Origin: a virus
Lineage: Duplodnaviria > Caudoviricetes
IMG/VR virus record: IMGVR_UViG_3300037484_000235
Coordinates: 96,001-160,000 of that record
Reading direction: 5' to 3' (one strand)
DNA length: 64,000 nucleotides
The position numbers and the translations under genes were made by a program. Below, piece after piece: positions 6,905-19,359 of the stretch (its first letter is position 1; each line of letters starts with the position of its first letter). Under the pieces are notes generated by a model. It saw only the letters and a program-made list of their open reading frames with translations, was not told the DNA's origin and made no database searches.

Positions 6905-6980
6905 TCCAGGGTAGCTCAGTGGAAGTAGCGTCCGGCTGTTAACCGGATGGTCGCAGGTTCGATCCCTGCCCCTGGAGCCA
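6905..6980 (+). tRNA. tRNA-Asn(GTT)
   Basis: tccgg-ctGTTaa-ccgga, CCA. Confidence 0.9.
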
Positions 6981-7053
6981 AGACGAATGCTCGGTCGGGA
7001 GTACATCAATCTTCGATACCCCCTCTCGGCCACTAAAATTGTCGTCTGTCTTT

Positions 7054-7122: not shown

Positions 7123-7286
7123 CCGCGTGGTGACCGAAAGGGACTCTTACCGGGGTCTCGGCTTTGGTTGCTCGTAGGGCGAATGCCGCTGAGAACTACA
7201 TTCTCCAAATCAGAAGGGCTTGCCGGAAGGCTGGCTCGGGTCGTCGCAAGACGGCCACTGTTTTCAGCACTCTTGTCGCTCGAAAT

Positions 7287-7922: not shown

Positions 7923-7925
7923 CTA

Positions 7926-8057
7926 GGGCAGATGCGGTGAGGACTACATAACAGGAACTCGGGGTCGCTGGTTCAAGTCCAGCCTGCCATCCTGGATGGC
8001 AGTAGCTCAGTCTGGTAGAGCACGAGTAAAAACCAATCTTCGCTAACCTTGCTGCCC
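7926..8057 (+). ncRNA. YrlA-type Y RNA (circularly permuted tRNA mimic)
   Basis: order: T arm (gctgg-TTCAAGT-ccagc), hairpin-closed acceptor (ctgccat/atggcag), D arm (gctc-agtctggta-gagc); actcg/cgagt stem leads to outer gggcag/ctgccc stem. Confidence 0.85.
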
Positions 8058-8066
8058 GAACTTTAT

Positions 8067-8740: not shown

Positions 8741-9322
8741 ATGCTAGACACAGATCACCCTGAGGAAATTGTTTCCTCATCTTGGGATGGCCGTCCTCGA
8801 AGACTTGTTGCCAATCTTTGTGGTCATTGTCATGGCAGGTTCTTTGCCCCGAGACACACAACTGCAAAGTTCTGTTCTAAGACATGCTCCGACGAGTCAC
8901 AGAAGAACAAGACCGTTCTTGTTTGTGCCCAATGTAAAAGGTCTTTTGAGCGTGTTCCCAGTACCTTGAAGAACTCCCGGAGTGGGGTGAGATTCTGTCA
9001 GAGATCCTGTAAGGATGAGGCTCAAAGACTTGAGGGTCTCAAGGCCATACACCCTTCTCACTACGGGAGTGACATCACCCACAAGAAAGCTCTGATTAGG
9101 GATAGGGGACACAAGTGCGAGGTGTGTGGTTTCTCTCGGTGGCAAGGCAAGCCAATATCTCTGCACGTCGATCATGTCGACGGAAACCCTTATGACCACT
9201 CCCTAAGCAACCTTCGATTGATCTGTCCAAACTGTCATACCCAGACGCCAACTTATGGCGGCAGGAATAGAGGAAGGGGGAGAAAGTCGCGAAAGCTTCC
9301 GGATTGGAGTGACGTGAGGTGA
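8741..9322 (+). CDS. HNH endonuclease with Zn-ribbon N-terminus
   Basis: CEVC..LHVDHVDGN..NLRLICPNCH. Confidence 0.9.
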   Translation: MLDTDHPEEIVSSSWDGRPRRLVANLCGHCHGRFFAPRHTTAKFCSKTCSDESQKNKTVLVCAQCKRSFERVPSTLKNSRSGVRFCQRSCKDEAQRLEGLKAIHPSHYGSDITHKKALIRDRGHKCEVCGFSRWQGKPISLHVDHVDGNPYDHSLSNLRLICPNCHTQTPTYGGRNRGRGRKSRKLPDWSDVR

Positions 9323-9334
9323 TGGGGTGTTTTT

Positions 9335-9407
9335 CGGGGTGTAGCTCAAATGGGAGAGCTTTGGCGAACAGCCAAAGATCAGGGTTCGAATCCCTGCTAC
9401 CCGGCCA
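9335..9407 (+). ncRNA. tRNA-like RNA with 5-nt anticodon loop
   Basis: D arm gctc/gagc, tttggc-gaaca-gccaaa, T arm cagggTTCGAATccctg, CCA. Confidence 0.6.
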
Positions 9408-9541
9408 GTGTTGTGGAAATACTCGATGGGGATTACATTACCTGCTAAGTAATCGATCTGGGTTCGACTCCCAGGCGCTCCCGTAAGGGGGCGAGCCAGG
9501 GGCTAGAAAAACATCTCTGTCATCACTTGTTTCACAGCACT
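9407..9541 (+). ncRNA. YrlA-like RNA 2
   Basis: outer stem agtgttgtgg/tcacagcact; T arm ctggg-TTCGACT-cccag; acceptor closed by GTAA tetraloop; minimal D-like hairpin. Confidence 0.65.
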
Positions 9542-9551
9542 ACTTCTTTTC

Positions 9552-9692
9552 GTGGTGAATACCGCAGTGACTACATGGAAAACGGTTGCCGAAAGGCGTG
9601 TGGGCTTCGATACCCACCTCAGCCTCGCAAGGGCTGAGTGGCGGAATGGCAGACGCGACTGCAAATGTCACTGTGACCCCTCTTGTCACCAC
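9552..9692 (+). ncRNA. YrlA-like RNA 3 (class II tRNA-derived)
   Basis: gtggtga/tcaccac and cgcagtgac/gtcactgtg stems; variable arm gccGAAAggc, T arm, closed acceptor ctcagcc/ggctgag, Leu-type D arm. Confidence 0.8.
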
Positions 9693-9833
9693 ACTAACTT
9701 CGCATGGGCCCTACGGGGTCCATGTGCAGACGGGTCTCGTAGGTCGCGCCAGGCCCTACGAGCTGGAAGATAGGGGACGCCACCCGCGAAAGCGATCAGC
9801 GGCCCCGAGTCCTGTCCGTGTTCCTGGTATTCT

Positions 9834-9908
9834 GGGGCTGTAGCTCAGTTGGGAGAGCGTCTCCATGGCATGGAGAAGGTCAAGGGTTCGATTCCCTTCA
9901 GCTCCACC
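9834..9908 (+). tRNA. tRNA-Ala(GGC)
   Basis: G3:U70, tctcc-atGGCat-ggaga. Confidence 0.9.
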
Positions 9909-10067
9909 GTAAGGGTAGTTCAAGTTGCGGTCGCGTACCGCACGGGGACGTAGGACAACCACAAGTCTGTGCACAGGTCGGTGGGAAGATCACGCGACGT
10001 GAGAGCTGCCTTCCAATAGAAGGTGAACGCAGGCGGAAACCCTGCCCCTTACGACAATTTCAAACAT

Positions 10068-10144: not shown

Positions 10145-10238
10145 GGTGTAGGATTGCTAATCGGTAGGCAGGGAGGCTACAGGCTGACGAGCCTGGTACG
10201 GCCACCCGTATTGCAGGTTCAACTCCTGCCCAGCACCC
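10145..10238 (+). ncRNA. long-variable-arm tRNA-like RNA without canonical anticodon loop
   Basis: acceptor ggtgtagg/ccagcacc, caggct-gacg-agcctg, variable arm gtacgg/ccgtat, T arm. Confidence 0.55.
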
Positions 10239-10514: not shown

Positions 10515-10589
10515 GCGGGTGTGGCGCAGTGGTAGCGCATCAGCTTCCCATGCTGAATGTCGCGGGTTCGACTCCCGCCACCCGCTCCA
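10515..10589 (+). tRNA. tRNA-Gly(CCC)
   Basis: tcagc-ttCCCat-gctga, CCA. Confidence 0.9.
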
Positions 10590-10680
10590 GGTTGAATGCC
10601 ACGTCGGGAGTACATCCCTATACGATAAACCCTCTCGACAACCGTGCAGACTAGTGCTGCACACCTTGTCAACCTTTCAC

Positions 10681-13764: not shown

Positions 13765-13849
13765 GTGAGAGTGGTGGAATGGCAGTCACGCTGGGCTAAG
13801 GACCCAGTGCCCCCAACGGGGCGTGCGGGTTCGACTCCCGCCTTTCACA
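13765..13849 (+). tRNA. tRNA-Leu(AAG)
   Basis: ctggg-ctAAGga-cccag, long variable arm. Confidence 0.85.
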
Positions 13850-13867
13850 CAAAGTGCAGTGCAACAT

Positions 13868-13955
13868 GCTGGGGTGGCGAAATGGCAGACGCACCAGGTT
13901 CAGAACCTGGCGGGGTTTAAACCTCATGGGGGTTCAAGTCCCCCCCTCAGCACCA
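13868..13955 (+). tRNA. tRNA-Leu(CAG)
   Basis: ccagg-ttCAGaa-cctgg, CCA. Confidence 0.9.
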
Positions 13956-13967
13956 AAGAGTACACAT

Positions 13968-14052
13968 GCAAGATTGGCGAAACTGGCAGACGCTACGGGC
14001 TGAGAGTCCGTCGGGTAATACCGTGAGGGTTCGACTCCCTCATCTTGCACCA
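13968..14052 (+). tRNA. tRNA-Leu(GAG)
   Basis: acggg-ctGAGag-tccgt, CCA. Confidence 0.9.
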
Positions 14053-14059
14053 GTAGTGA

Positions 14060-14135
14060 GGGAGCGTAGCCCAACGGCAGAGGCAGTGCATTTAGGGTGC
14101 ACTCAGTGTGGGTTCGAATCCCACCGTTCCTACCA
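14060..14135 (+). tRNA. tRNA-Leu(TAG), short variable loop
   Basis: gtgca-ttTAGgg-tgcac, 5-nt variable loop, CCA. Confidence 0.85.
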
Positions 14136-14138
14136 AAT

Positions 14139-14223
14139 GCCCCGGTGGCGAAACGGCAAACGCGGTGGATTTAAAATCCGCTGCCGAAAGGTGTTGCGGG
14201 TTCGACTCCCGCTCGGGGCACCA
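14139..14223 (+). tRNA. tRNA-Leu(TAA)
   Basis: gtgga-ttTAAaa-tccgc, CCA. Confidence 0.9.
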
Positions 14224-14231
14224 AGATGTAT

Positions 14232-14317
14232 GCGGGCGTGGCGGAATGGCAGACGCACTGGTTTCAAAAATCAGCGGGGGAAACCTCATGAGGGTCCGAC
14301 TCCCTCCGCCCGTACCA
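14232..14317 (+). tRNA. tRNA-Leu(CAA)
   Basis: ctggt-ttCAAaa-atcag, CCA. Confidence 0.9.
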
Positions 14318-14416: not shown

Positions 14417-14947
14417 ATGCATAAGACGCTTGTTCTCGATCAGGGCTACCAGCCTCACCGCGTGGTGAGTTGGCAGCGAGCCGTCACGATGTGGTGGGAC
14501 GGCAAGTGTGAGATCGTCGAGGAGTATGACGAAGACATCCGGAGCGTGACCTTCACGATCAAGATGCCTGCTGTAGTCAGACTTCTTCAGCGGGTTCGGG
14601 GGAAGAAGCAGGCTGTCAAGTTCTCGCGGATCAACGTCGCGACACGGGACAACATGACTTGTCAGTACTGTTCTGACAAGCTTCCGCTCTCGAAGCTCAC
14701 CTACGATCACGTTGTCCCAAGATCTCAGGGTGGAAAGACTCTGTGGGAGAACATCGTGATGGCCTGTTACGGCTGCAACGAGAAGAAGGCCGACCGCACT
14801 CCTGCTCAGGCGAAGATGCCTTTGAAGAAGGTGCCGGTGAAGCCAGCCTTCCTTCCGGTGATCTCGATGCGTTTCGAGACGGGTTCCTGCCCGGATCTGT
14901 GGCGCTCTTGGATCTACTGGAACACCGCCCTCGAAGAGGGCAGCTAG
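14417..14947 (+). CDS. HNH endonuclease (McrA/HNH_5-like)
   Basis: TLVLDQGYQP..RDNMTCQYC..TYDHVVPRSQGG..WENIVMACYGCNEKK. Confidence 0.92.
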   Translation: MHKTLVLDQGYQPHRVVSWQRAVTMWWDGKCEIVEEYDEDIRSVTFTIKMPAVVRLLQRVRGKKQAVKFSRINVATRDNMTCQYCSDKLPLSKLTYDHVVPRSQGGKTLWENIVMACYGCNEKKADRTPAQAKMPLKKVPVKPAFLPVISMRFETGSCPDLWRSWIYWNTALEEGS

Positions 14948-15259: not shown

Positions 15260-15347
15260 GGAAACTGAACTAGACTGGGTCTGGGCCCGCTTGGAAAGCG
15301 GTGAGATATCGCAAGGTGTTGAGGTTCAATTCCTCCGGTTTCCGCCA
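15260..15347 (+). tRNA. tRNA-Ser(GGA)
   Basis: ccgc-ttGGAaa-gcgg, long variable arm, GCCA. Confidence 0.85.
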
Positions 15348-16990: not shown

Positions 16991-16992
16991 TT

Positions 16993-17079
16993 GGAAGCTG
17001 AATTGGTGATGGCACCAAGCTTGATTGCTAATCAATGCGTGCCTACGGGCATGGGGTTCGAATCCTCCGGTTTCCGCCA
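16993..17079 (+). tRNA. tRNA-Ser(GCT)
   Basis: ttga-ttGCTaa-tcaa, long variable arm, GCCA. Confidence 0.85.
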
Positions 17080-17134: not shown

Positions 17135-17300
17135 GGGGATTTAGCACAATGGTAGTGCTCTCCAACCGGGTGATACCGGCAGGGGTGGTCTAGAGGCGAG
17201 GAGATCCGACGGAGGGGTAGCTGCCCGAGTCGACTCCAAGAATCTAGGGCGGTGGGGCGAAAGCTCCACGGAGTGGGTTCGAGTCCCACAATCTCCACCA
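17135..17300 (+). ncRNA. Ala-identity tRNA frame with ~105-nt insert
   Basis: ggggatt/aatctcc (G3:U70), ACCA end, D arm gcac/gtgc, ctcc/ggag stem enclosing the insert. Confidence 0.7.
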
Positions 17301-17691: not shown

Positions 17692-19359
17692 ATGAAAGAG
17701 GGGAATTACATCATGGCAAATCGAAAGCTTTTCGCGTCCGCTCCGGCTGGTCGGGTAGCACCGCCCACCGACACTGTGAACTCTGCTGGTGGTCGAGCCT
17801 ACAAGGCTGGTCCGAAGGAGGCGCTCGCCCAGTACGTGGCGACCGGCTGCCTTGGGGCAACCTTCTACGCTTCGGCTGAGGAGCAGCTCGATGAGATCCT
17901 CAAGCTCGCGTCCGACGTGAGCCCGGAGTTCGTCGCACAGGCGGCCGTCTACGGACGTCGGTCTGCGTTCATGAAGGACACTCCGGCGCTTCTGCTCGCG
18001 CACCTGGCGACCCGTGGTCCAGAGGGTCTTGCTGCGCTCAAGGCGGCATTCAACCAGGTCGTAGACAACCCGAAGATGCTCCGCACCTTCGTGCAGATCA
18101 TGCGCTCGGGCAAGGTCGGCCGGAAGTCACTCGGCACCGCACCCAAGACCCTGGTCAAGGCGTGGTTCGATGCACGTTCTGACGTGCAGCTCTTCCGTGC
18201 GACCGGTGACAAGCCGTCGCTTGCGGACGTGATCAAGATGGTCCACCCCAAGCCCCAGAACGCGGCTCGGAAGGCCCTCTACGCCCTCCTGGTGGGCAAG
18301 AGCTACGACCTCGATGCGTGCGATGCACTCGTCCAGGAGTTCGAGGCGTGGAAGAAGGATCCGTCGCGGCCAGTACCGGACGTTCCCTTCCTCATGCTCA
18401 CGAACGTCCAGCTCGACAAGAAGCAGTGGGTGGCTATCGCCCGGTCGGCTTCCTGGCAGACCGCACGCATGAACCTCAACACGTTCCTGCGTCACGGTGT
18501 GTTCGAGGACAAGGCAATGATCAAGGTCATTGCGGCCAAGCTGCGGGATGAGTCGGAGATTGCTCATGCACGGGTCTTCCCGTACCAGCTTCTCGTCGCG
18601 TACCGGAACGTCTCTGGCGTTCCGATGGAGATCCAGAGCGCCCTCCAGGACGCGATGGAGATCGCAACGAAGAACGTTCCTGTGATCGATGGGACCGTCG
18701 CTGTCTTCCCAGACGTGTCGGGTTCCATGTGCAGCCCGGTCACGGGTGCACGGGGTTCCGCAACCACCAAGGTCGAGTGCAAGGACGTAGCGGCGCTAGT
18801 GGCCGCTACGATTCTCCGGCGCAACCCTGGTGCGCGCGTGGTTCCCTTCAAGGAGGACGTGATCAACCTTCGGCTCAACCCGAAGGACAGCATCGTCACC
18901 ATCGCGGAGCAGATCGCGAAGTGTGGCTCGGGCGGCACCAACTGCTCGGCACCACTGCGCCTCCTGAACTCTGAGAAGGCCAAGGCGGACCTTATCGTCT
19001 ACGTCTCAGACAACGAGTCGTGGATGGATCCAAACGTCTCCCTCAACTCGTACTCCTCGGGGTACACCAGCTCGCCAACGAGCATGATGGCGGAGTGGGA
19101 GAAGTTCCGCGTCCGCAACCCGGCGGCAAAGCTCGCCTGCATCGACCTCGCGCCCAACGGTTCTCGTCAGGCACCAACTCGCAAGGACATCCTGAATGTC
19201 GGAGGCTTCTCTGACGAGGTCTTCACCCTGCTCTCCGAGTTCCACAAGGGCTCGGGAGGCGACCACTGGGCGAAGAAGATCGGGAGTGTTCAGCTCGGTC
19301 GTGAAGTCCCAGTCGCACCCGTGAAGCCCACGGGTGGAACTGATTGGGTGACCCTCTAA
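17692..19359 (+). CDS. rsr: Ro60/TROVE-VWA RNA-binding protein
   Basis: DTVNSAGGRAY..TGCLGATFYASAEEQL TROVE N-terminus; SWQTARMNLNTF; VWA MIDAS DVSGSM; GGTNCSAP; SDNESW. Confidence 0.95.
   Translation: MKEGNYIMANRKLFASAPAGRVAPPTDTVNSAGGRAYKAGPKEALAQYVATGCLGATFYASAEEQLDEILKLASDVSPEFVAQAAVYGRRSAFMKDTPALLLAHLATRGPEGLAALKAAFNQVVDNPKMLRTFVQIMRSGKVGRKSLGTAPKTLVKAWFDARSDVQLFRATGDKPSLADVIKMVHPKPQNAARKALYALLVGKSYDLDACDALVQEFEAWKKDPSRPVPDVPFLMLTNVQLDKKQWVAIARSASWQTARMNLNTFLRHGVFEDKAMIKVIAAKLRDESEIAHARVFPYQLLVAYRNVSGVPMEIQSALQDAMEIATKNVPVIDGTVAVFPDVSGSMCSPVTGARGSATTKVECKDVAALVAATILRRNPGARVVPFKEDVINLRLNPKDSIVTIAEQIAKCGSGGTNCSAPLRLLNSEKAKADLIVYVSDNESWMDPNVSLNSYSSGYTSSPTSMMAEWEKFRVRNPAAKLACIDLAPNGSRQAPTRKDILNVGGFSDEVFTLLSEFHKGSGGDHWAKKIGSVQLGREVPVAPVKPTGGTDWVTL

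What the first reader, a model, noticed from the sequence alone, without database searches (positions are those of the whole stretch)
9552..9692. YrlA-like RNA built from a class II (Leu-type) tRNA
The permuted order is cggtt, variable arm gccGAAAggc, T arm, closed acceptor ctcagcc/ggctgag, D arm tggcggaatggcagacgc, gactg. This D arm is nearly identical to those of the tRNA-Leu genes at 13.9-14.3 kb. It is carried on two outer helices (cgcagtgac/gtcactgtg and gtggtga/tcaccac). Inference: this is an independent origin of a Y RNA from tRNA-Leu, which could engage LeuRS or Leu-specific enzymes.
Basis: partly seen in the sequence, partly recalled or inferred. Interest (0 to 1): 0.8.

Follow-up and report, generated by a model that had tools for sequence, protein, structure and literature searches.

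The report
Leucine-tRNA-shaped phage Y RNA
This 141-base stretch in a giant phage's tRNA island is a real small "Y RNA" of the YrlA type, the partner class of the ring protein Ro60/Rsr. Its tRNA-shaped part copies the body of leucine tRNA, and it belongs to a conserved subgroup found in many large phages and bacteria rather than being a one-off invention of this phage.

Summary
All seven helices exist at the stated coordinates, with 39 of 39 standard pairs. A covariance model built only from 21 relatives on other contigs finds 9552-9692 as the best hit in the window (91.9 bits, E 1.6e-21).

The element is a YrlA-family Y RNA. It has the conserved Y "handle" (GAAU.C ... GACUACAU ... CUUGUC) and lies on the same strand as a phage Ro60/Rsr gene (17692-19359). 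Its tRNA-like module is class II and Leu-type: U8-G9, a 3-bp D stem with the generic tRNA-Leu D arm, a GAAA-capped variable-arm hairpin, and an A15/U48 Levitt pair.

The same design recurs, with strong covariation, in other jumbo-phage contigs and next to rsr in Verrucomicrobiota, Acidobacteriota and a Gammaproteobacteria MAG. Rfam's YrlA model scores these 31-46 bits or not at all (threshold 69).

"Independent origin in this phage" is not supported. The handle is shared with ordinary YrlA, and the D arm matches tRNA-Leu genes of many genomes equally well. The element sits in a 1.2-kb insertion beside an HNH endonuclease gene that the closest relatives lack.

LeuRS engagement is untested. The capped acceptor, of variable length in the family and without CCA or A73, argues against charging. 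This scan has already noted Leu-like YrlAs on other DNA (Hymenobacter, another phage).

The parts
9552..9558 (+). 5' strand of the outer helix. It overlaps the Rsr-recognition motif region (GGUGAAUA at 9554-9561, a variant of GNCGAAN0-1G).
   Evidence: Pairs 7/7 with 9686-9692. Six of the 7 pairs show double compensatory changes across 32 relatives, 98% paired. Motif definition is from Chen et al. 2014.
9563..9576 (+). 5' strand of the second helix (9563-9571), running into the conserved GACUACAU box (9569-9576), the YUAY element of YrlA.
   Evidence: 9/9 pairs with 9667-9675. The box is present in nearly all relatives. It is conserved in the Rfam YrlA consensus.
9583..9587 (+). 3' strand of the anticodon-stem equivalent (CGGUU).
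   Evidence: 5/5 pairs with GACUG at 9657-9661, two of them G-U. Four of the 5 pairs covary.
9588..9599 (+). Long variable arm: a GCC-GAAA-GGC hairpin followed by G-U. U9599 is position 48, the Levitt partner of A15 at 9646.
   Evidence: The helix is 95% paired with double changes in all 3 pairs. Most of the 21 other Leu-type members carry a GNRA-capped hairpin here, and all have U just before the T stem.
9600..9617 (+). T arm: GUGGG / CCCAC with an 8-nt loop CUUCGAUA (one C more than the canonical UUCGAUA).
   Evidence: The stem is 98% paired in relatives. The extra C occurs in 1 of 32 aligned sequences.
9618..9638 (+). Acceptor-stem equivalent, 7 bp (CUCAGCC/GGCUGAG), sealed by U + C(GCAA)G. 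There is no free 3' end, no CCA and no A73.
   Evidence: 7/7 pairs. All 7 pairs covary and are 99% paired. Caps are GNRA or UUCG in most relatives and stem length varies from 6 to about 11 bp.
9639..9656 (+). U8-G9 plus a tRNA-Leu-type D arm (3-bp stem GCG/CGC, loop GAAUGGCAGA).
   Evidence: Identical to tRNA-Leu(CAA) of the window. The D stem is 100% paired and 2 of 3 pairs covary (GCG/CGC to GUG/CAC).
9657..9675 (+). 5' strand of the anticodon-stem equivalent (GACUG), a 5-nt joiner, and the 3' strand of the second helix (GUCACUGUG). The extra hairpin that most phage-type relatives carry here is absent.
9676..9692 (+). Internal-loop strand ending in the conserved CUUGUC, then the 3' strand of the outer helix (UCACCAC).
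   Evidence: CUUGUC is near-invariant in relatives and in the Rfam YrlA consensus.
17692..19359 (+). Ro60/Rsr orthologue (555 aa), the presumed protein partner, 8.0 kb downstream on the same strand.
   Evidence: Pfam vWA_Ro60 7.7e-18 and TROVE 2.1e-07. Shares 45% identity with the Myxococcus phage Mx1 protein.
7925..8061 (+). Ordinary (class I) YrlA of the same phage, a paralogue with the same handle.
   Evidence: Rfam RF02553 59 bits, E 1.9e-11, full length, below the gathering score of 69. Syntenic copies occur in relatives.
9410..9538 (+). Neighbouring Y-handle RNA with a reduced tRNA-like module, ending 13 nt before the element.
   Evidence: R1 21.9 bits and R2 34.3 bits, full length.
8741..9322 (+). 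HNH endonuclease ORF inside the 1.2-kb block that holds the element and is missing from the closest relatives.
   Evidence: Pfam HNH 2.3e-05. Synteny comparison.

Best explanation
Window 9552-9692 encodes a YrlA-family Y RNA of a distinct Leu-type (class II) subfamily. Shown: (1) the fold; (2) its conservation and covariation in 21 relatives; (3) the shared Y handle; (4) the tRNA-Leu-like D arm and variable hairpin; (5) the genomic link of the subfamily with rsr. Inferred: (1) The RNA is transcribed as part of the long tRNA-island transcript and is cut out by the tRNA-processing nucleases that free its neighbours. (2) Its paired 5' and 3' ends bind the phage Ro60/Rsr ring through the GAAU.C/CUUGUC region. 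(3) The sealed, L-shaped tRNA-Leu look-alike is displayed as the effector module, which either gates Rsr or tethers it to a tRNA-binding or RNA-degrading host factor, as described for Rsr-Y RNA-PNPase complexes. The phage carries at least six RNAs with this handle and different displayed modules, so the Leu-type copy is one member of a repertoire. It reached this phage within an HNH-associated insertion rather than arising from its own tRNA-Leu genes.
For: Fold: 39/39 standard pairs. Membership: leave-one-out model R2 gives 91.9 bits, E 1.6e-21, against 51.4 bits for the class I YrlA of the same window. Covariation, model-fitted alignment of 32: 94.5% of cells paired, 33 of 39 pairs with double changes, covariation score 0.70 against 0.10-0.12 when partners are slid. 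Covariation, MAFFT alignment without the candidate: RNAalifold de novo recovers the outer helix, second helix, T arm, acceptor and D stem, with 21 of 27 pairs compensatory. Handle homology: R1 built from the element retrieves ordinary YrlAs next to rsr in L005, L009, L010, L015 and L017, and the motifs match the Rfam YrlA consensus. Leu type: the top 8 of 499 tRNAs are all Leu for the candidate and about 19 relatives. Link with Rsr: Rsr is encoded in the window. It lies within the fetched locus for 13 of the 28 related loci checked, 7 of them with the long-variable-arm Leu design (L194, L195, L216, L276, L286, L297, L343). It is also in 3 of 5 phage contigs, including the one complete 407-kb genome. 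Processing context: in phage loci the element starts 1-2 nt after the upstream tRNA, and no promoter or terminator lies around it here. Published function of the class: Y RNAs tether or gate Rsr with PNPase (PMC4201824), and a phage Ro60 with its Y-like RNAs binds host PNPase and damps it (PMC12135203).
Against: No expression data. No binding was tested. Rfam's YrlA model gives no hit at all on the element, even at E<=10. It lies 8.0 kb from rsr, beyond the 4 kb used to define YrlAs. It departs from the 31 aligned relatives at two conserved spots: it reads GAAUAC where every one of them has G at the fifth position (GAAUGC in most), which changes the last G of the proposed Rsr motif, and it has an extra C in the T loop, which could disturb the elbow. 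So this particular copy could bind Rsr poorly or be decaying. The five closest relatives lack it. The contig is only about 57% complete, and neither RtcB nor a LeuRS domain was found in it.
Confidence: 0.8

Rival explanations
1. A decaying or non-functional paralogue. The sequence descends from a Leu-type YrlA but no longer binds Rsr or folds into a proper elbow, and rides along in an HNH-associated insertion.
For: It carries two changes found in none of the 31 aligned relatives: an A where all of them have the last G of the handle motif, and a 1-nt insertion next to U54. It is absent from the five closest relatives. It lies in a lineage-specific 1.2-kb block.
Against: All 39 pairs are intact, with no broken helix. 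The score under the leave-one-out model is the highest in the window. The neighbouring Y RNA 9410-9538 has the same A (AAAUAC), which suggests a tolerated local variant.
Confidence: 0.1
2. An isotype-specific decoy or tether. The Leu-type module is selected because it binds LeuRS or another factor that reads the body of tRNA-Leu (a modification enzyme or a tRNA-targeting host defence nuclease), either sequestering it or bringing it to Rsr.
For: The Leu-type D arm, U8-G9, A15/U48 and the variable hairpin are kept across phages and several bacterial phyla, while Ser- and Tyr-type features are not seen. In 4 of about 12 phage loci the element directly follows a tRNA-Leu gene. From my own knowledge, E. 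coli LeuRS reads the tertiary core rather than the anticodon.
Against: There is no free acceptor end, no A73 and no CCA. Acceptor length varies from 6 to about 11 bp, and there is no anticodon loop, so charging and anticodon nucleases are excluded. No LeuRS domain is in the contig. The Leu-type D arm may simply be inherited together with the long variable arm it packs against.
Confidence: 0.12
3. A circularly permuted tRNA-Leu gene that is processed (ends joined, acceptor opened) into a decoding tRNA, as in some algae and archaea.
For: The permuted order and a 7-bp acceptor resemble permuted pre-tRNAs. M. smegmatis YrlA with a 7-bp acceptor is opened by RNase P and receives CCA (PMC4201824).
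Against: There is nothing that could become a 7-nt anticodon loop. The ends form a 16-bp Y-type stem with the Rsr motifs. The phage already has six tRNA-Leu isoacceptors. No RtcB ligase is in the contig. The relatives' acceptors are tetraloop-capped and of variable length.
Confidence: 0.02
4. A chance look-alike created by the junction of two neighbouring tRNA genes (the T arm of one, the D arm of the next), the known false positive of YrlA searches.
For: Real tRNA-Leu junctions in the window do score with the models (14169-14277 gets 45 bits with R2). Chen et al. 2014 had to discard such overlaps.
Against: No tRNA is called on either side of the element within it. The two acceptor strands pair with each other 7/7. 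The whole is framed by the Y handle, matches full length, and covaries.
Confidence: 0.01

Closest known systems
YrlA (Y RNA-like A; Rfam RF02553) of Salmonella Typhimurium, Mycobacterium smegmatis and mycobacteriophages, bound by Rsr/Ro60 (Chen et al. 2014, PMC4201824; Wang et al. 2018, bioRxiv 10.1101/312249)
   Same: The 5' and 3' ends pair into a long stem carrying GNCGAA-type, YUAY and CUUGUC motifs. The arm order is variable region, T arm, loop-closed acceptor, D arm. It lies on the same strand as rsr. Several paralogues occur per genome. Long variable loops 'characteristic of class II tRNAs' were already noted for many YrlAs, and the origin from a tRNA dimer was already proposed.
   Different: The D arm is not the near-invariant YrlA D arm (UA GCUC...GAGC, 4 bp) but the tRNA-Leu one (UG GCG...CGC, 3 bp). 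The variable region is a defined GNRA-capped hairpin. The Rfam model gives no hit here and only 31-46 bits on relatives. It lies 8 kb from rsr inside a 46-tRNA island.
Class II tRNA-Leu genes, including the six in this window (13765-14317)
   Same: U8-G9, an identical D arm, an A15/U48 pair, a variable hairpin like that of tRNA-Leu(UAA), a T arm, and a 7-bp acceptor. ARAGORN accepts the re-joined halves.
   Different: It is circularly permuted. The anticodon loop is replaced by a 16-bp Y stem. The acceptor is sealed by a tetraloop, and there is no CCA or A73. The T loop has 8 nt. It cannot decode or be charged as it stands.
Thermus phage phiLo Ro60 with Yrl1/Yrl2 (PMC12135203)
   Same: A phage-encoded Ro60 with Y-like RNAs encoded nearby. 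It offers a tested model in which the RNP binds host PNPase and lowers its activity.
   Different: The phiLo Yrls were found by a CGAA motif and stem shape, and no tRNA-like module is described. The proteins share only about 24% identity.
Circularly permuted tRNA genes of Cyanidioschyzon merolae and some archaea (as discussed in 10.1101/312249)
   Same: The 3' half is encoded before the 5' half, and the acceptor is initially a closed loop.
   Different: Those genes carry a full anticodon arm formed after joining and are matured into decoding tRNAs. This element has no anticodon loop and has Ro60-type stem motifs.

Membership tests
YrlA (RF02553; Chen et al. 2014) | GNCGAAN0-1G motif near the 5' end (proposed Rsr contact) | tested here: inconclusive
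   The element reads GGUGAAUA. The C is U, with a compensating A on the other strand, as in 10 of 32 relatives. The final G is A, however, and that is seen in none of the 31 aligned relatives. The neighbour 9410-9538 shares the A.
YrlA (RF02553; Chen et al. 2014) | 5' and 3' ends pair into a stem with an internal loop, the YUAY box and a CUUGUC-type 3' strand | tested here: met
   Helices of 7 bp and 9 bp, GACUACAU and CUUGUC are all present and covary.
YrlA (RF02553; Chen et al. 2014) | Arm order V region, T stem-loop, closed acceptor stem-loop, D stem-loop | tested here: met
   The same order holds in all relatives.
YrlA (RF02553; Chen et al. 2014) | Near-invariant T and D stem-loop sequences of the family | tested here: not met
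   The T stem fits, but the loop has 8 nt. The D arm is the tRNA-Leu type, not UA-GCUC...GAGC.
YrlA (RF02553; Chen et al. 2014) | Score at or above the Rfam gathering threshold (69 bits) | tested here: not met
   No hit at E<=10 on 9545-9700 or on 9400-9840. Relatives score 31-46 bits or nothing.
YrlA (RF02553; Chen et al. 2014) | Encoded within 4 kb of rsr on the same strand | tested here: inconclusive
   Same strand, but 8.0 kb away in the same tRNA island. Many subfamily members lie within a few kb of rsr.
YrlA (RF02553; Chen et al. 2014) | Bound by Rsr in vivo; modified by TruB and DusA | not testable with these tools
   No RNA data set holds the sequence.
Leu-type YrlA subfamily (defined here by model R2) | Full-length match to a model built from other members | tested here: met
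   91.9 bits, E 1.6e-21, model positions 1-150.
Leu-type YrlA subfamily (defined here by model R2) | U8-G9, 3-bp D stem with a GGAAYGGYAGAC-type loop, hairpin variable arm, U48 | tested here: met
Leu-type YrlA subfamily (defined here by model R2) | Extra GNRA hairpin between the anticodon-stem equivalent and the second helix (phage-type members) | tested here: not met
   Absent here, as in the bacterial members L216, L316, L286 and L297.
tRNA-Leu (functional class II tRNA) | Anticodon arm with a Leu anticodon, a free acceptor end with A73 and CCA | tested here: not met
   There is no anticodon loop. The acceptor is sealed by U + C(GCAA)G. ARAGORN calls nothing here in the native order.

The most novel reading that the evidence does not exclude
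Ro60/Rsr systems, in jumbo phages above all, may keep a repertoire of Y RNAs that each imitate a particular tRNA class or isotype on one common handle. The Leu-type member would be read by a factor specific for the tRNA-Leu body (LeuRS, a Leu-specific modification enzyme or a tRNA-targeting defence nuclease). Rsr would then be aimed at, or would shield, one tRNA species during infection.
Probability: 0.15. Interest if true: 0.8.

Novelty: new variant of a known kind. Interest (0 to 1): 0.5.

Why it matters
Y RNAs of the YrlA type were described as generic tRNA mimics with an "extremely conserved" D and T stem. From this it was predicted that one elbow-reading effector binds them all. A conserved, covarying subgroup with the D arm and variable arm of leucine tRNA shows three things. 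First, the displayed module can be exchanged on a constant Ro60-binding handle. Second, current annotation (the Rfam threshold) misses these RNAs. Third, giant phages carry several such RNAs with different modules inside their tRNA islands. That turns the question "what does the tRNA-like part bind?" into a comparative experiment: pull-downs with the class I module against the Leu-type module. It also supplies sequences relevant to the published idea that YrlAs arose from tRNA dimers. For this particular copy the value is more modest. It is one more member, with two odd changes, and it appears to have been acquired within an HNH-associated insertion.

Tried and rejected
1. Rfam at the gathering threshold and at E<=10 on the element gave no hit. 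The family was reached only through self-built models.

2. blastn of 9400-9840 against 50,697 phage records found no match. blastn against loci around related rsr genes found only tRNA-Leu D arms.

3. Orthologue in the five closest contigs (Rsr 71-83% identical): none, either with R1 over whole contigs or with R2 over rsr +/-10 kb.

4. Expression: no RNA holder is listed among public runs, and only DNA runs with small shares appear.

5. Recent origin from the phage's own tRNA-Leu genes: own-genome versus other-genome D-arm similarity shows no excess. Rejected as unsupported.

6. RtcB and LeuRS-domain searches of the 252-kb contig found nothing. The contig is about 57% complete, so this is weak.

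7. Protein-coding reading: ORFs 9552-9773, 9586-9843 and 9756-9974(-) have no PHROG match, and the base-pair covariation fits an RNA.

8. Own promoter or terminator: none found.

Members were kept only after scoring with the covariance model, so counts of members are lower bounds and not prevalences.

10. Sim & Wolin 2018 (PMC6047535) could not be read. I therefore cannot exclude that Leu-type YrlAs are mentioned there.

Full report
**Where the window lies.** The window is bases 96001-160000 of a 252.5-kb IMG/VR viral contig, estimated to be about 57% complete. ARAGORN finds 46 tRNA genes between 6.3 and 21 kb, all on the + strand, including six tRNA-Leu isoacceptors at 13765-14317. ORF 17692-19359 (+) inside this island is a Ro60/Rsr orthologue (Pfam vWA_Ro60 7.7e-18, TROVE 2.1e-07). 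Its nearest named relative is a protein of Myxococcus phage Mx1, at 45% identity.

**The observation.**
- Written as one structure, they give 39 pairs in seven helices, and every pair is G-C, A-U or G-U.
- The structure costs -49.6 kcal/mol, against an unconstrained MFE of -52.8. The MFE contains the two outer helices and the variable, T and acceptor hairpins, but it pairs the D-arm region differently and lacks the anticodon-stem equivalent.
- The MFE z-score is only -1.99, so the energy alone proves little.
- Re-joining the two halves through an artificial anticodon loop yields an 83-nt class II tRNA that ARAGORN accepts. The "Leu" label there follows from the loop I inserted and carries no weight.
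- Against the window's own tRNAs, the six best matches are the six tRNA-Leu genes, and the D arm is identical to that of tRNA-Leu(CAA).

**It is a YrlA-type Y RNA.** Rfam finds an ordinary YrlA at 7925-8061 (RF02553, 59 bits, E 1.9e-11, full length, below the gathering score of 69). It finds nothing on 9552-9692, even at E<=10. Yet the stem of the element reads GUGGUGA-AUAC-CGCAGUGA-CUAC ... CUUG-UCACCAC. This lines up with the Rfam YrlA consensus cggCga-AUGC-uuggGgaa-CUAc ... cUuG-ucGccg.

A covariance model of the element alone (R1) retrieves full-length ordinary YrlAs beside rsr in other phage contigs (L005, L009, L010, L015, L017). In the window it also retrieves 9410-9538, 6980-7048 and 7925-8058. 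The handle is therefore homologous to that of YrlA.

**It belongs to a subfamily.** A pattern scan of viral contigs asked for the handle box, a T loop and a Leu-type D arm. It found the same design in other jumbo-phage contigs (sequences; scores). A second viral scan, plus scans of metagenome and genome collections, all filtered with R1, added many more.

The bacterial genomes include Haloferula sp. BvORR071, Akkermansiaceae and Verrucomicrobiaceae MAGs, three Pyrinomonadaceae MAGs and a Gammaproteobacteria MAG.

The table shows the common plan:
- the handle;
- an anticodon-stem equivalent;
- a variable hairpin, GNRA-capped in most;
- U48;
- a T arm;
- an acceptor of 6 to about 11 bp capped by GNRA or UUCG;
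- U8-G9;
- a 3-bp D stem GCG/CGC or GUG/CAC with a GGAAYGGYAGAC-type loop.

Most phage-type members add a small hairpin 3' of the anticodon-stem equivalent. The window's copy and the bacterial copies do not.

**Tests of the subfamily.**
- Covariation, model-fitted alignment of 32 sequences: 94.5% of cells are paired, 33 of 39 pairs have double changes, and the covariation score is 0.70, against 0.10-0.12 with slid partners. This alignment leans towards the model.
- Covariation, independent alignment: I aligned 21 Leu-type members, without the window's copy, using MAFFT. RNAalifold de novo recovered the outer helix, second helix, T arm, acceptor and D stem, with 21 of 27 pairs compensatory.
- Leave-one-out: model R2 built from that alignment scores 9552-9692 at 91.9 bits, E 1.6e-21. 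This is the best hit in the window, against 51.4 bits for the class I YrlA.
- Isotype: in a pool of 499 tRNAs from the fetched loci (51 Leu, 20 Ser, 8 Tyr), the 8 best matches are all tRNA-Leu for the candidate and about 19 relatives. Class I YrlAs match Thr, Phe, Arg and others.
- Link to Rsr: tblastn finds rsr inside the fetched locus for 13 of the 28 related loci checked. Seven of these (L194, L195, L216, L276, L286, L297, L343) carry the long-variable-arm Leu design. Rsr is also present in 3 of 5 phage contigs, including the only complete one at 407 kb; the two without it are 17-20% complete.
- Rfam blind spot: on these relatives RF02553 scores 31-46 bits, or nothing for the phage type. 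Ordinary YrlAs in the same loci score 69-79 bits.

**Origin.** Three points argue against that for this phage.
- The shared handle points to a common YrlA scaffold.
- The candidate's D-arm 18-mer occurs unchanged in tRNA-Leu genes of 6 of 17 other loci. Across ten members, the own-genome tRNA-Leu is no closer than foreign ones. The identity with the window's tRNA-Leu(CAA) is therefore generic.
- The GAAA-capped variable hairpin is a subfamily trait rather than a recent copy of tRNA-Leu(UAA).

Synteny supports acquisition from outside. In the relatives L004-L008, tRNA-Met or tRNA-Val(GAC) is followed by tRNA-Ala(GGC) after 3-270 nt. The window has about 1.2 kb more at this point. The extra block holds tRNA-Ala(CGC), an HNH endonuclease ORF (8741-9322), tRNA-Val(AAC), the Y RNA 9410-9538, the Leu-type Y RNA and a 141-nt spacer. 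The class I YrlA, in contrast, keeps its place between tRNA-Arg(CCU) and tRNA-His in the relatives.

Whether the subfamily as a whole began from a tRNA-Leu pair is open. The published model is that the T arm came from the first tRNA and the D arm from the second (10.1101/312249). The alternative is module exchange on an existing YrlA. In 4 of about 12 phage loci the element directly follows a tRNA-Leu gene, which is suggestive only.

**What is already known.**
- Chen et al. 2014 defined YrlA and do not mention class II or Leu.
- Wang et al. 2018 state that many YrlAs have long variable loops "characteristic of class II tRNAs". They stress the "extreme conservation" of the T and D stems and discuss the dimeric-tRNA origin.
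- I found no paper describing YrlAs with a tRNA-Leu D arm. One review could not be read.
- Within this scan, earlier follow-ups reported a Leu-like YrlA next to rsr in a Hymenobacter genome and a YrlA-type RNA among the tRNA-Leu genes of another phage. My results agree with those.

**Mechanism.** Shown:
- the fold and its conservation;
- the handle;
- the Leu-type module;
- the association with rsr.

Inferred:
- co-transcription with the tRNA island. No promoter or terminator is nearby, and in other phages the element starts 1-2 nt after a tRNA;
- release by tRNA-processing nucleases;
- binding of the stem by the phage Rsr;
- display of a sealed tRNA-Leu-shaped module that gates Rsr or tethers it to a host factor such as PNPase. 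This is described for bacterial Rsr-Y RNA-PNPase (PMC4201824) and for phage phiLo Ro60 (PMC12135203).

Charging by LeuRS is unlikely. The acceptor is capped, its length is not conserved, and there is no A73 or CCA. M. smegmatis YrlA, with a 7-bp acceptor, is opened by RNase P and gains CCA. The 7-bp acceptor here makes that a testable possibility, not a finding.

**Cautions for this copy.** It reads GAAUAC where all 31 aligned relatives have G at the fifth position (GAAUGC in most). It also carries an extra C before U54. The neighbouring Y RNA shares the first change. These may be tolerated local variants or signs of decay.

**Verdict.** The element is a member of a Leu-type variant of the known YrlA kind. 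The variant appears undescribed in the literature I could search, although this scan has seen it before on other DNA.

Noticed in passing
window 9410-9538 (+): Another RNA with the Y handle (AAAUAC...GAUUACAU...CUUGUU) lies 13 nt upstream of the element. It has an anticodon-arm-like hairpin, a canonical T arm, a GUAA-capped acceptor and only a stub of a D arm. R1 scores it 21.9 bits and R2 34.3 bits; the Rfam tRNA model gives 16.4 bits on part of it.
   Followed up: partly
window 6981-7047 and 10589-10675 (+): Two short Y-handle hairpins (GAAUGC-N-GGGAGUACAU ... UUGUC) without a tRNA-like module, each placed right after a tRNA. The first gets a weak Rfam YrlB hit (22.5 bits). R2 scores the second 19.8 bits.
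   Followed up: partly
window 7176-7282 (+): A Y-handle RNA (GAAUGC...AACUACAU...CUUGUC) whose insert is not tRNA-like. R2 scores it 33.5 bits. With 7925-8061, 9410-9538, 9552-9692 and the two short ones, this makes six handle-bearing RNAs in one tRNA island.
   Followed up: partly
window 8741-9322 and 14417-14947 (+): Two HNH endonuclease ORFs lie inside the tRNA island. The first lies in the 1.2-kb block that the closest relatives (L004-L008) lack between tRNA-Met/Val and tRNA-Ala(GGC). This suggests that homing-type insertions reshuffle the island.
   Followed up: partly
window 15260-15343, 16992-17076 and 10145-10237 (+): Class II tRNA-like sequences are hit only by the Rfam tRNA-Sec model (33.1, 33.8 and 24.5 bits, all below threshold) and are not called by ARAGORN. 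ARAGORN called no tRNA-Ser in the window, so these may be its tRNA-Ser genes or further mimics.
   Followed up: no
window 17200-17300 (+): A sub-threshold hit of the Rfam tmRNA model (26.8 bits, E 1.5e-07) lies just upstream of tRNA-Gly and rsr. The stretch 17135-17300 looks like a tRNA-Ala-type acceptor and T arm around a long structured insert.
   Followed up: no
window 9693-9833 (+): A 141-nt G+C-rich spacer between the element and tRNA-Ala(GGC), with at least two strong hairpins. It has no Rfam match and no match in relatives.
   Followed up: no
L183:1227-1571 (-), metagenome contig Ga0187817_10026546: A full bacterial-type RNase P RNA (Rfam 291.7 bits) is encoded in a 3.5-kb contig packed with tRNAs, YrlA-type RNAs (including a Leu-type one at 1770-1919) and tmRNA-like hits. 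This is possibly a phage tRNA island carrying its own RNase P RNA.
   Followed up: no
L297:935-2238 (+), Haloferula sp. BvORR071: Six YrlA-type RNAs in tandem lie directly downstream of rsr. Four score 70-79 bits with Rfam, one 49 and one 37. The last in the row is the Leu-type copy (31 bits with Rfam, 65.7 with R1).
   Followed up: partly
L027:2695-2829, L087:4341-4471, L334:3390-3519, L315:3689-3821, L009:9434-9573: A third YrlA module type has the D arm UG-GUGUAAYGGYAGCAC and a shorter variable region. It occurs in phages and in Polyangiales and Hyphomicrobiaceae MAGs. Its tRNA model is unclear.
   Followed up: no
G006:C1:39002-40648 and G009:C1:112785-114206: The rsr homologues of two other jumbo-phage contigs are read through one in-frame TAG and one in-frame TGA respectively. 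These may be a sequencing error, a broken gene or stop-codon recoding.
   Followed up: no
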